Below, in pieces: positions 3,360 through 27,218 of a DNA stretch of 35,380 bases. Source of the stretch: a virus (Duplodnaviria; Caudoviricetes); IMG/VR virus record IMGVR_UViG_3300030330_001746, positions 1 to 35,380 of that record, one strand, 5' to 3'. The notes under the pieces were generated by a model. It did no database searches. It worked only from the letters and a program-made list of their open reading frames with translations, and was not told the origin of the DNA. The number at the start of each line of letters is the position of its first letter. Within the stretch, counting starts at the first letter, position 1. The position numbers and the translations under genes are program-made.

Positions 3360-3578
3360 ATGAGAAATTATAAAGCAGAATACGCCCGCGAAACCCGCGA
3401 GCGCCGCGACAAGCGCGCCGCCCGCAATCGCGCCCGCTACTCCCTTATGAAAAAGGGGCGCGTCAAAAAAGGCGACGGCAAGCACGTAGACCACAAGAAC
3501 CGCAACGCGCTCGACAACCGCCCTGGCAATCTTTCGGTAATGTCGCGCGCAAGCAACTTGGCGCGAAGACGCAAATAA
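3360..3578 (+). CDS. Small HNH endonuclease-like protein
   Basis: HVDHKNRNALDN...NL...N motif; basic N-terminus; located next to terminase genes. Confidence 0.75.
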   Translation: MRNYKAEYARETRERRDKRAARNRARYSLMKKGRVKKGDGKHVDHKNRNALDNRPGNLSVMSRASNLARRRK

Positions 3579-7710: not shown

Positions 7711-8514
7711 GTGTCCGAAGAGCAGGGAGCGGTTGCTCCGGTAGAAACCGGGGAGGCACCGTCTGACGATTGGAGATCAAGTTTACCTACGGAATTGCAA
7801 TCCGACCCATCGCTTCAACACATTGGAAGCGTCGAAGGGATGGCGAAGTCCTACATAAACGCCCAAAAAATGGTAGGCGCCGAAAAGCTGGCGATACCGG
7901 GAAACTGGGCGACGGACGAGGATTGGGATCTGGTTTACAACAAGCTGGGACGCCCACAAGACCCAAGGGAATACGAGTTTAGTCTCGGCGAAGAGACGAA
8001 CGAAGAGTTTACAGATTGGTTTCGCAACGCTGCACACAAGTCTGGCTTATCTGCCCGCCAGGCAGCCCAGCTCGCTGAGGCTTACCAAGAATTTTCTGGT
8101 ACAACGATGCAACAAAGTGAGGCACAAGCGGAAAGTCATCGTGACGCTGTTGAGGCAGAACTAAGGCAAGAGTTTGGCGGGCAGTTTGAGGCAAAAATCG
8201 AAGCCGCAAACGAGATGCTTAAAGAATTTGAAGCGCCCGATTTAACTGAAATGCGCATGGCGGATGGCTCTTCTCTTGGCGACAATGCCGACATGGTTCG
8301 CTTTATGGTCAAGGTTACTGACTATATTAAGAAAGAAATTAGTGAGGACGGGCTCGCTGGTCGCGATAGCCGTCCGACGCTAAGCGAAACAGATATCCAG
8401 GCGCGCATCAGTCAGCTCTCTCAGAGAGGTTCGCCCTATTGGGAAAAGCATCACCCTGATCACGATCGAACGGTAAGCGAGGTTCTGCGCCTTCGCGAGC
8501 AACTCAATGGATGA
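7711..8514 (+). CDS. Capsid scaffolding/assembly protein
   Basis: Acidic and helical; KSYINAQKMVG, YNKLGRP, GLSARQA and PYWEKHHPDH motifs; upstream of the capsid gene. Confidence 0.8.
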   Translation: MSEEQGAVAPVETGEAPSDDWRSSLPTELQSDPSLQHIGSVEGMAKSYINAQKMVGAEKLAIPGNWATDEDWDLVYNKLGRPQDPREYEFSLGEETNEEFTDWFRNAAHKSGLSARQAAQLAEAYQEFSGTTMQQSEAQAESHRDAVEAELRQEFGGQFEAKIEAANEMLKEFEAPDLTEMRMADGSSLGDNADMVRFMVKVTDYIKKEISEDGLAGRDSRPTLSETDIQARISQLSQRGSPYWEKHHPDHDRTVSEVLRLREQLNG

Positions 8515-8683
8515 CAAGGAGATTAAATTAGAATGTTTGCGCCTGGCTGTGCAGTTTGGCTCGGCGCGCACAGTAAGCGATCCGGTAATGCTTGCGCAGC
8601 GTTACATGGACTTCGTGAAATCCGAGGACAAGCCACGAGCCCCCCGGCGCAAGCCTTTGAGTAAGGCGGACCAGTCGGCCTAA
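8507..8683 (+). CDS. Hypothetical protein (58 aa)
   Basis: MDDKEIKLECLRLAVQFG...AQRYMDFV...; overlaps the scaffold stop codon. Confidence 0.6.
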   Translation: MDDKEIKLECLRLAVQFGSARTVSDPVMLAQRYMDFVKSEDKPRAPRRKPLSKADQSA

Positions 8684-8752
8684 CCGACAGTGAGCCGGGC
8701 AATAGCCCGATAACTGACGCAATCTGAAACCACAACTGTAGGAGCATGGGAC

Positions 8753-10039
8753 ATGAGTACCCAGGTGACACAGGCGTTCGTGAATCAGTTTTCGTCGAAC
8801 GTCGAAATGCTCAGCCAACAGATGGGAAGTCTGTTGCGCGGCGCCGTTGACAGCGAGTCTGTCACCGGAGAAAAGGCCTTCTTCGACCAGATCGGTAAAT
8901 AACTTTGCCTAGTTAGTGTGAAAGCACTTTCTGAAAACCCATCAAATTCGGTGAAGGCTTTAAAATGCTAATACCGAGCGAAGCCCGATTGGGAACGTGT
9001 AGAGACTAGACGGTGGGGGCCGTAACATTCAGTTGACGGTCGAGGTATAGTCCAGACCACAAACAGCGGAAGCTGGCGGCGAAAGCCGTAGCTGGTACGG
9101 AAGCAGCAGCAATAGCGCGCACTTCACGGCACGGAGATACGCCACTTGTCGAGACGCCTCACTCTCGGCGACAGGTTAGCTTAACAACGTATGAGTGGGC
9201 CGACCTCAATGGGGTCGTAACTGGGTGAATTGCTGGAAAGCTAAGTCCGCAAGGATATGCCAATCAGCATCCAAGCTCGAAAGAGAAGGTTCAGAGACTA
9301 TCCGCAAGGAGTACACCGCGAGCGCGGTGGAAGCGCCCAGACCCGATAAGGGTAAGATATAGTCCGATCCTGCGGGAAACCGTAGGCAGCGAAAGCGGGC
9401 CAAGGTTAGCGACCTTGGTTGAACAAATACATTGATGATGCGGACAAGGTCCGCATGTTGATAGATCCAACATCCTCGTATGCACGCGCCGCCGCTGCGG
9501 CAATCGGGCGAGCGATGGATGATGAGATCATCGATGCCCTTGGCGGCACAGCCAAGACTGGCAAAGACGGGACGACTTCAACAGCGTTCCCGGCAAGCCA
9601 AAAAATAGCGGTTGCGTCCTCTGGACTTACAATCGCAAAACTGGTCAACGCAAAAAAGATCCTTGATCAGAACAACGTCGATGCATCGATTAAAAAATAC
9701 ATCGTTGTATCACCCGAGCAGATTGAGGATTTGCTCAACAATACAACCGTGACTTCGAGCGACTTCAACACTGTTAAAGCTTTAGCTCAAGGTGACATTT
9801 CAAGTTTTGTTGGTTTCGAATTTATCGTGTCTAACCGTCTAAGCGTTGACGGGTCGAGTGATCGACTCTGCTACGCCTGGGCTCAAGACGGCGTTAAGCT
9901 CGCAATTGGCAAAGACGTAATGGCGCGTGTCGAAGAGCGCGCCGACAAAAGTTTTTCAACGCAAGTCTACTATTGCAGTACTTTCGGGGCGACCCGTATG
10001 CAAGAAGACAAAGTCGTTGAAATTGCTTGTAGTGAGTAA
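8753..10039 (+). CDS. Major capsid protein, spliced: join(8753-8896, 9100-9206, 9430-10039), 286 aa
   Basis: AGGAG RBS. Exons of 144+107+610=861 nt join into a continuous frame: MSTQVTQAFVNQFSSNVEMLSQQMGS...FFDQIG|EAAAIARTSRHGDTP...YEWADL|IDDADKVRMLIDPTSSY...KVVEIACSE. Confidence 0.9.
8897..9099 (+). ncRNA. Group I intron 1 (203 nt, IC3/Azoarcus-like)
   Basis: 5' exon ends in U; intron ends in G. P AAAUUCGGUGAA, Q AAUACCGAGCGAAGC, R GUGUAGAGACUAGACGG, S GGUAUAGUCC; P3 CCCAUC/GGUGGG; P10 CUUU/GAAG. Confidence 0.9.
9207..9429 (+). ncRNA. Group I intron 2 (223 nt, IA-like with P7.1/P7.2; terminal nucleotide A)
   Basis: P1 CGACCU/GGGUCG with U.G pair; P GAAUUGCUGGAA, Q AAUCAGCAUCCAAGC, R GUUCAGAGACUA, S AAGAUAUAGUCC; P3 CUGGGUG/CGCCCAG; P10 CAAUG/CAUUG. 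Confidence 0.88.
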
Positions 10040-10055
10040 GGAAGGAGACTGAACA

Positions 10056-10532
10056 ATGGCTACTGTTTTTAGTAATGTTCGGACCGACCTGACTCAGGAC
10101 GATCCGAAAGAATTCGTCAAAGCTAATCAGCTTGGCGGTTCCGTTCGCGTGGCACATGCCACGTTTGAAGCTTCTAGTTTAGCTTCTGGAGACGTCATCG
10201 AGATGTTTGCGTTGCCGCAAGGCGCGCGCGTTCTCGGCGGCTATCTCTACAATGATGCGTTAGGGTCTTCGACAACTCTTTCGGTTGGTCACTCTGCCCA
10301 CACCAATGGCGCTGGCGCGTCAGTGGCGGCAGACGCAGATGAGTACCTGGCGGCAACGTCAACGTCCTCCGCTGCGCGCACCGATATTGCCGCTACGCTC
10401 GCCCTCTCGGCGAACACCGTGGTAGACATCAGTCAATCGGTAATTGACAACGAGTTTGTCGTTACAGTGACGATGGGCGGTGCCGCCGGCACTGGCACCA
10501 TCGAGCTGATGATGATGTACGCTGTCGATTAA
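10056..10532 (+). CDS. Capsid decoration/minor virion protein
   Basis: AAGGAG RBS; follows the capsid gene; beta-rich, GDVIEMFALPQGARV motif. Confidence 0.65.
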   Translation: MATVFSNVRTDLTQDDPKEFVKANQLGGSVRVAHATFEASSLASGDVIEMFALPQGARVLGGYLYNDALGSSTTLSVGHSAHTNGAGASVAADADEYLAATSTSSAARTDIAATLALSANTVVDISQSVIDNEFVVTVTMGGAAGTGTIELMMMYAVD

Positions 10533-26822: not shown

Positions 26823-27218
26823 ATGAACGAGATGCTCGTGGGGCAGGCTGGCGAGTACATCGCCGCCGCTGCGCTTCTTGAGCTTGGCGTTCAAACAATG
26901 TTTAGCCCAACTGCCGGCGCGGACCTTTTGGCGTTTGCTCAAAAACGATATTGGCGCGTCGAAGTTAAAACAACGCAATCGCGTGAAAAGCGAGACGGCA
27001 AAAACCTGTATCGTTGGAACACGGCAACGGGCTCACAAAACAAATCTGTCTTGAGTTCCGACGACTCAGATATCGTCGCGCTCGTCGCGCTCGATCGCCG
27101 GCAAGTTTTCTTTCGACCAGTCAATTTGATAACAGGAAAAACGACACGCCTTAGCGCAAATAGATTTGTCGAGGGAGTCGAAGAAAAAACCTGGAAAGAA
27201 GCAATCGCATGCAGTTGA
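26823..27218 (+). CDS. PD-(D/E)XK endonuclease
   Basis: GQAGEYIAAAAL...ADLLA...RVEVKTT...DIVALV. Confidence 0.75.
   Translation: MNEMLVGQAGEYIAAAALLELGVQTMFSPTAGADLLAFAQKRYWRVEVKTTQSREKRDGKNLYRWNTATGSQNKSVLSSDDSDIVALVALDRRQVFFRPVNLITGKTTRLSANRFVEGVEEKTWKEAIACS

What the first reader, a model, noticed from the sequence alone, without database searches (positions are those of the whole stretch)
8753..10039. Major capsid gene split by two tandem ORF-less group I introns
Seen: the ORF track shows only a 206-aa fragment. Removing 8897-9099 and 9207-9429 gives a continuous 286-aa protein from an RBS-backed ATG. Each insert has P/Q/R/S cores and an in-frame stop, so both must be spliced to make capsid; the middle exon is only 107 nt. 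Established: classic phage group I introns sit mostly in DNA-metabolism genes (td, nrd, pol) and often encode homing endonucleases. Inference: two different minimal ribozymes gating the most abundant virion protein of a small temperate phage could act as a post-transcriptional checkpoint on virion production.
Basis: partly seen in the sequence, partly recalled or inferred. Interest (0 to 1): 0.9.

Follow-up and report, generated by a model that had tools for sequence, protein, structure and literature searches.

The report
Phage capsid intron splices without omega-G
The only capsid gene of this marine phage is split by two small, likely self-splicing (group I) introns that are missing, at exactly the predicted junctions, from ocean RNA sequences; the second ends in A instead of the near-universal G, a rare variant shared by a family of related phage introns, while a role as a brake on virion production has no support here.

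Summary
Observation confirmed. Both inserts (8897-9099, 9207-9429) pass the Rfam group I cut-off. The three exons join to a 286-aa HTVC010P-type major capsid protein. Metatranscriptome contigs skip both inserts exactly, with 0 mismatches; 0 of 4 DNA runs show the joined form. Its G-binding pair is normal, so a perfect 5-bp P10 likely fixes the 3' splice site. The checkpoint idea is unsupported: inserts occur in 16 of 80 relatives, at 11 shifting sites, and RNA shows only the spliced form. Capsid-gene introns, tandem introns in a virion gene and omega-A introns are each published (LittleE, crAss-like phages, Twort, sea anemone ND5-717; a Coxiella intron lacks omega-G). This scan's unchecked notes also report omega-A phage introns on other DNA. 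Verdict: new variant of a known kind, with in situ splicing evidence and a natural omega-A/omega-G comparison at one site.

The parts
8740..8744 (+). Ribosome-binding site (AGGAG) of the capsid gene
   Evidence: sequence; 8 nt before the ATG at 8753
8753..8896 (+). Major capsid protein exon 1 (48 codons), ends in the splice-site U
   Evidence: PF19821 model 1-45; RNA junction
8897..9099 (+). Intron 1: 203-nt ORF-less group I intron of the compact type found in tRNA genes (no P7.1/P7.2); guide G at 8907, P7 at 9002-9008 with 9048-9053, ends in G
   Evidence: RF00028 55 bits; P1/P10 count; 20 of 38 core-pattern relatives lie in tRNA genes; skipped in RNA runs X9 and X16
9100..9206 (+). Capsid exon 2 (107 nt); its last 6 nt form P1 with intron 2
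   Evidence: present between both junctions in RNA contig X9 record 9
9207..9429 (+). Intron 2: 223-nt ORF-less group IA2-type intron without P2, ending in A (omega-A, base 9429)
   Evidence: RF00028 63.2 bits; helices and covariation; omega-A in 13 of 13 clade members; skipped in RNA runs X9 and X11; base confirmed in DNA runs X1 and X8
9201..9217 (+). P1 of intron 2 (9201-9206 with 9212-9217; U9206-G9212 wobble at the 5' splice site); the loop 9207-9211 is the P10 guide
   Evidence: 6 of 6 pairs formed in 13 of 13 sequences, 2 pairs with changes on both sides
9294..9365 (+). P7 of intron 2 (9294-9300 with 9360-9365), canonical G9296-C9364 guanosine-binding pair; P7.1-GUA-P7.2 at 9301-9329
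   Evidence: P7 invariant in 13 of 13
9430..10039 (+). Capsid exon 3 (610 nt with stop); first 5 nt form P10 with 9207-9211
   Evidence: closest isolate capsids are of HTVC010P-type pelagiphages, 62-66% identical

Best explanation
The capsid gene is split by two unrelated ORF-less group I introns that are removed exactly from the RNA, likely by self-splicing; the second is a natural omega-A variant whose 3' splice site is likely set by base pairing (P10, P9.0) rather than by a terminal G, and both are probably tolerated selfish passengers, not a regulatory gate. Steps: (1) shown: both have group I cores, and the joined exons occur in an RNA library; (2) inferred from the standard group I pathway and the intact P1 wobble and P7 G-C pair: free guanosine attacks each 5' splice site; (3) inferred: in intron 2 the five bases 9207-9211 pair with the first five bases of exon 3 and hold the junction in place, so that A9429 can take the place of omega-G in step 2; (4) inferred: different guide sequences keep the two introns from joining exon 1 to exon 3; (5) inferred: such introns come and go in this gene by recombination between phages and occasional moves to new sites, with no endonuclease of their own.
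For: Rfam hits over cut-off. Ordered exon matches to one capsid family. A 1001-nt RNA contig with both introns skipped and 0 other letters; junction 2 again in a second run of that sample, junction 1 in another sample. 0 of 4 DNA runs with the joined form. The closest intron-free allele is 76.5% identical in DNA. The junction-2 ambiguity (2 bases) allows only A, C or A as last base. Omega-A in 13 of 13 clade members, one side of a branch at 96/89, while positions omega-2 to omega-4 vary. Structure: 98.5% of cells paired, 18 of 74 pairs with changes on both sides against 5.1 in shuffles (0/500), slid controls 29-42% paired. The P10 exon motif is kept in 13 of 13 carrier alleles and in 2 of 62 alleles without an intron there. 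Patchy spread: omega-A needs 6 changes on the capsid tree. Cross-pairing of the guides is weaker than own pairing (-4.2 against -8.8 kcal/mol for P1 of intron 2).
Against: Self-catalysis and the cofactor were not tested. The omega-A junction is seen in one RNA sample only (two runs), as assembled contigs, so neither rate nor spliced fraction is known. P10 never varies among the 13, so covariation says nothing on it, and some omega-G introns also have 5-6-bp P10 (L135, L084), so a long P10 is not peculiar to omega-A. In one of two trees two omega-G introns fell inside the omega-A group at low support (57). No vehicle of spread was found.
Confidence: 0.75

Rival explanations
1. Omega-A is itself selected: it damps side reactions (3' splice-site hydrolysis, circle formation, re-opening of spliced mRNA) of a ribozyme released from a very abundant late transcript. 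This can hold together with the best explanation.
For: A is kept in 13 of 13 while nearby unpaired bases vary; no reversion to G. The same idea is offered for ND5-717 in PMC8146996 (passage).
Against: The clade is shallow (87% mean column identity) and omega-5, omega-6 and omega-1 are as invariant, so one fixed change explains it. 27 of 40 inserts in the same gene do well with G, three of them at the same site. An unchecked scan note (e1-5525196) reports circles from another omega-A phage intron.
Confidence: 0.25
2. One reading: the introns, above all a slow omega-A second step, form a checkpoint that ties capsid synthesis to GTP, Mg2+ or host state.
For: Both introns must be removed from the only capsid gene. 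A switch role is discussed for phage introns in PMC11878797. Recalled, not read here: the Coxiella omega-A intron splices slowly.
Against: 63 of the 80 best relatives have an unbroken gene. Sites, number and type of intron change between close relatives. Only spliced RNA was assembled. No sensor-like extra domain is seen in 203 and 223 nt.
Confidence: 0.1
3. Intron 2 is not fully autonomous: it needs a host or phage protein, or uses an adenosine cofactor, to splice through omega-A.
For: It lacks both P2 and omega-G. 4 of 8 tested Bastillevirinae intron genes spliced only in infected cells (PMC11878797).
Against: The P7 G-C pair and all core helices are canonical and invariant. A P2-less IA2 phage intron self-splices in vitro (PMC3428280).
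Confidence: 0.12
4. The joined RNA comes from an intron-free twin phage, and the introns here (or the omega-A one) are dead insertions.
For: Intron content differs between near-identical strains at another site (L100).
Against: 0 mismatches over 1001 nt, no intron-free allele above 76.5% identity, no joined form in 4 DNA runs, compensatory changes across the clade, and open capsid frames in 13 distinct carrier alleles.
Confidence: 0.04

Closest known systems
Hexacoral mitochondrial ND5-717 intron (PMC8146996, passages read)
   Same: Group I intron with omega-A in an essential protein gene, spliced accurately in vivo
   Different: Mitochondrial, obligatory, vertically inherited, with genes in P8; here a 223-nt optional phage intron with omega-G neighbours at the same site
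Coxiella burnetii 23S rRNA introns (Raghavan et al. 2007, title seen in the reference list of PMC3428280; passage in PMC10136302; omega-A and slow splicing recalled)
   Same: Two group I introns of different subgroups around a short exon, one lacking omega-G
   Different: rRNA gene of a bacterium, subgroups IB2 and IA3, 34-nt exon with exon skipping; here an mRNA, a 107-nt exon, IA2 and tRNA-type introns
Staphylococcus phage Twort orf142 (passages in PMC10136302 and PMC11878797)
   Same: Several group I introns, IA2 among them, in tandem in a virion gene (tail tube)
   Different: Two of its introns are near-copies and skip the exon; here the two are unrelated and one ends in A
Capsid-gene introns of mycobacteriophage LittleE and lactococcal phage Tuc2009 (PMC3706429) and of crAss-like phages (PMC7886860), passages read
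   Same: Group I-type intron(s) in the major capsid gene; LittleE is temperate and its splicing was shown by RT-PCR
   Different: LittleE and most crAss-like examples carry endonuclease genes; LittleE ends in G. None is in an HTVC010P-type capsid gene
IA2 intron of cyanophage Pf-WMP3 DNA polymerase (PMC3428280, passages read)
   Same: P7.1 and P7.2 linked by GUA; no P2
   Different: Carries an HNH gene; lies in a polymerase gene

Membership tests
Group I intron (both inserts) | P3-P4-P6-P7 catalytic core matching the covariance model | tested here: met
   RF00028 55.0 and 63.2 bits, cut-off 50; intron 2 helices
Group I intron (both inserts) | 5' exon ends in U paired to a guide G in P1 | tested here: met
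   U8896 with 3 contiguous pairs, U9206 with 6; P1 of intron 2 covaries with the exon in L109 and L169
Group I intron (intron 1) | Terminal omega-G | tested here: met
   G9099, junction seen in RNA
Group I intron (intron 2) | Terminal omega-G (near-universal; published exceptions) | tested here: not met
   A9429 in DNA and at the RNA junction; 13 of 13 clade members. It is therefore filed as an omega-A variant, not as a canonical member
Group I intron (both inserts) | G-C guanosine-binding pair in P7 | tested here: met
   intron 2 G9296-C9364 invariant in 13; intron 1 read from sequence and the alignment
Group I intron (both inserts) | Exact removal from RNA with exon ligation | tested here: met
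   RNA contigs; DNA control; one study, contigs only
Group I intron (both inserts) | Protein-free, guanosine-started self-splicing | not testable with these tools
   needs an in vitro assay
Subgroup IA2 (intron 2) | P7.1 and P7.2 linked by G-U-A (definition as in PMC3428280) | tested here: met
   9301-9310, GUA, 9314-9329
Subgroup IC3 / tRNA-type (intron 1) | Match to the subgroup model; compact core without P7 extensions (definition recalled) | tested here: inconclusive
   No subgroup models were on hand; no P7.1/P7.2, and 20 of 38 core-pattern relatives lie in tRNA genes, 15 of them called tRNA-Leu
Mobile (homing) group I intron | Intron-encoded endonuclease | tested here: not met
   All 40 inserts are 188-266 nt, longest stop-free frame 85 aa
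Collaborative homing (free-standing endonuclease beside an ORF-less intron) | Endonuclease gene near the intron-bearing gene | tested here: inconclusive
   A crude motif screen of 1254 ORFs within 3 kb in 80 loci printed no hit and had no positive control; a 72-aa HNH ORF and a weak PD-(D/E)XK ORF lie far off in the window
HTVC010P-type major capsid protein (PF19821, phrog_3437) | Full-length ordered match | tested here: met

The most novel reading that the evidence does not exclude
This capsid gene family is a natural laboratory of endonuclease-free intron spread, and one lineage has shed omega-G for good: a 223-nt, P2-less ribozyme that picks its 3' splice site by P10 alone, splices at no cost in the phage's most demanded mRNA, and is kept as A because that stops the freed ribozyme from attacking capsid mRNA. 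The tRNA-type introns at four sites with look-alike targets would mark moves by reverse splicing.
Probability: 0.25. Interest if true: 0.78.

Novelty: new variant of a known kind. Interest (0 to 1): 0.52.

Why it matters
Omega-G is treated as the one near-universal base of group I introns. Here a small natural omega-A ribozyme comes with 12 distinct relatives, omega-G introns at the same site, forms with and without P2, and spliced RNA from the sea. That makes it a compact system to ask how the second step works without omega-G and whether omega-A suppresses side reactions. The 11 intron sites without endonucleases also bear on the old question of how ORF-less group I introns reach new sites. 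Practically, capsid genes of this marine phage group are cut into fragments by gene callers in about a fifth of the close relatives seen (16 of 80).

Tried and rejected
Alternative G-ending 3' sites for intron 2: G9417 keeps the frame but adds 4 residues; G9418, 9421, 9434 and 9437 shift it. A G9211/G9434 junction keeps the length but has no 5' U or P1 and puts Asn where all 65 uninterrupted alleles have Ile or Val. The RNA junction fits none of these. Assembly error at 9429: rejected. Altered G-binding site: rejected. Further Rfam RNAs in the window: none at cut-off. Promoter and terminator scan of 8400-10200: 1 and 1 found, no more than shuffles. Plain folding of intron 1 gave z -2.7 but not the P1 and P7 pairings. 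The genome-contig scan gave 22 loci, none among the capsid inserts catalogued, so taken as chance matches and no host was named; L173 was likewise not among them. Co-conversion around site 251: excess third-position identity only in codons 81-90 (0.77 against 0.54), which P1/P10 constraint explains; no long tract. The automatic P10 average (5.0 against 2.7) was not used, because the guide register was mis-picked for at least four omega-G introns. RNA run X15 holds a relative and covers no junction.

Full report
Observation. Removing 8897-9099 (203 nt) and 9207-9429 (223 nt) gives an open frame of 286 codons from ATG 8753; every partly spliced or exon-skipped form stops at 49 or 90 aa. Both inserts match Rfam RF00028 above its cut-off of 50 bits (55.0 and 63.2) and are the only 2 such Rfam hits in the window. 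The three exons match PF19821 and phrog_3437 in order. The gene is the only capsid gene of a 35.4-kb virus record, 97% complete. The record has a podophage-like head and tail block, an integrase and a CI-like repressor. The nearest cultured capsids are those of HTVC010P-type pelagiphages, 62-66% identical over exon 3 in the 15 rows shown of 56. The host was not determined.

Splicing in nature. One search listed 23 runs: 16 DNA holders, 4 RNA holders and 3 DNA runs of the same sample as the best RNA run. I laid all 4 RNA runs (one study, at most 3 samples). Run X9 holds a 1001-nt contig made of 8608-8896, 9100-9206 and 9430-10034 with no other letter. X11 (same sample) shows junction 2, X16 (another sample) shows junction 1, and X15 holds a relative with no junction cover. 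I laid 4 of the 16 DNA holders. None shows the joined form. X1 holds the whole unspliced stretch with 0 differences (it may be the window's source), and X8 holds 9013-9490 with 0 differences. Among the 101 loci then held, the best intron-free allele was 76.5% identical in DNA. Splicing is thus well supported, but from contigs only: no rate, no spliced fraction, and junction 2 from one sample.

Intron 2 ends in A. P1 (9201-9206 with 9212-9217) fixes the 5' site at U9206. The five loop bases 9207-9211 pair perfectly with 9430-9434 (P10), and A9367 can pair with U9428 (P9.0). The RNA junction can slide by 2 bases, which gives A, C or A as last base, never G. The G-C pair of P7 is normal. In a protein-led sample (best 80 of 417 relatives), 16 loci carry complete inserts, 63 are unbroken and 1 is cut by its contig end. 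Six carry this 223-nt intron, all ending in A; three carry another 245-nt intron at the same site, ending in G. Pattern scans enlarged the set; these are biased towards carriers, though one search left the last base free. In all, 134 capsid loci gave 70 with inserts and 40 distinct inserts at 11 sites, 188-266 nt long. Thirteen end in A, all at this one site; 27 end in G, three of them at this site. The 13 form one side of a branch at 96/89 in one tree; in another alignment two omega-G introns fell among them at support 57. Two of the 13 (L109, L169) keep P2 and show paired changes in P1 and the exon. On a hand-drawn structure, 98.5% of 962 cells pair and 18 of 74 pairs change on both sides (shuffles 5.1, 0 of 500; slid controls 29-42% paired). 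P10 and P7 never vary, so that count does not test them. The exon half of P10 is the same five bases in 13 of 13 carrier alleles and in 2 of 62 alleles with no intron there; carriers are related, so this is suggestive only.

Type of each intron. Intron 2 has P7.1 and P7.2 linked by GUA, the IA2 mark as defined in PMC3428280. Intron 1 is unrelated to it (best local match 28 nt, E 0.06). It has no P7 extensions, and 20 of 38 loci found with its core pattern lie in tRNA genes. Its closest relatives (86%) sit at another site of the same capsid gene (L144, L135). The 11 tRNA-type inserts occupy four sites with look-alike flanks (10 of 11 with GGU before the cut, and purines after it in all).

Mechanism. 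Shown: group I cores, exact removal, omega-A, intact G site. Inferred from the established two-step pathway: free guanosine starts both reactions, and P10 with P9.0 places the 3' site of intron 2 so that A can stand in for G. That P10 can carry 3'-site choice when omega-G is changed is recalled from Tetrahymena and Anabaena mutant work; I did not read those papers here. Against a special link, some omega-G introns also have 5-6-bp P10. Spread: on a tree of 78 distinct complete capsid alleles (119 of 134 loci gave a complete frame) the omega-A intron needs 6 gains or losses, at least 4 forced by strong branches. L100, about 98% identical in the exon DNA that aligned, has a third intron. No insert can hold an endonuclease gene, and a crude screen found none within 3 kb (no positive control). 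The phage encodes a Sak4-like annealing protein, so recombination between co-infecting phages is a plausible route; this is inference.

The checkpoint idea. Nothing here supports it beyond the fact that splicing is obligatory. Most relatives lack any intron, the set of introns changes from strain to strain, and only spliced RNA was assembled. It is not excluded, since rates were not measured.

Comparison with what is known. Capsid-gene introns: LittleE (spliced, with endonuclease) and Tuc2009 in PMC3706429 (passages); crAss-like phages, one capsid gene in five pieces, in PMC7886860 (passages). Tandem introns around short exons: Twort orf142, a tail tube gene, and Coxiella 23S rRNA in PMC10136302 (passages) and PMC11878797 (passages and whole Discussion). 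Omega-A: ND5-717 in PMC8146996 (passages); the Coxiella intron lacking omega-G, title only, its A and slow rate recalled. PMC3984707 was read in passages. Nine paper searches were answered; I saw listings and opened 10 papers. None of what I saw describes an omega-A intron in a phage or introns in HTVC010P-type capsid genes. The symbol itself could not be searched, subscription journals are largely missing, and the table of split phage genes in the supplement of PMC11878797 could not be read and may bear on this. The scan's own notes (unchecked) list omega-A introns in other phages, capsid genes included; none shares this sequence.

Verdict. Real, and better supported than first claimed, but built from known parts. 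The new element is a conserved, optional omega-A IA2 lineage with spliced RNA, inside a capsid gene that is an intron hotspot. New variant of a known kind; interest 0.52.

Noticed in passing
capsid loci (e.g. L088, L089, L090, L100, L137, L144): HTVC010P-type capsid genes hold ORF-less group I introns at 11 sites, up to three per allele; 29 inserts are IA2-like and 11 tRNA-type.
   Followed up: partly
capsid coding positions 144, 158, 194, 596 (window intron 1; L135, L137, L144, L148, L084, L089, L099, L100): The tRNA-type introns at four sites share look-alike flanks, and intron 1 is 86% like those at position 194, as expected of guide-directed moves within the gene.
   Followed up: partly
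L094:1506-1730 and L109: The two share the 3' half of the omega-A intron and a diverged exon 3 but differ in P1, P2 and exon 1, which looks like recombination inside or near the intron.
   Followed up: no
L106, L112, L127 (other capsid families), L115 (tape measure), L140, L152, L156, L157, L161 (terminase): Related intron cores also lie in or beside other virion and packaging genes.
   Followed up: no
L142, L145, L154: Phage tRNA genes whose intron, as called by ARAGORN (695-752 nt), includes an HNH gene.
   Followed up: no
window 3360-3578: 72-aa HNH_3 ORF between the terminase genes, inside a stretch without other long ORFs; role unknown.
   Followed up: no
window 26823-27218: Weak PD-(D/E)XK nuclease match, below the Pfam cut-off, before the lysis genes.
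   Followed up: no
window 9828-9998, DNA run X8: A low-depth contig of a relative has 418 other letters in place of these 169, possibly another capsid insert.
   Followed up: no
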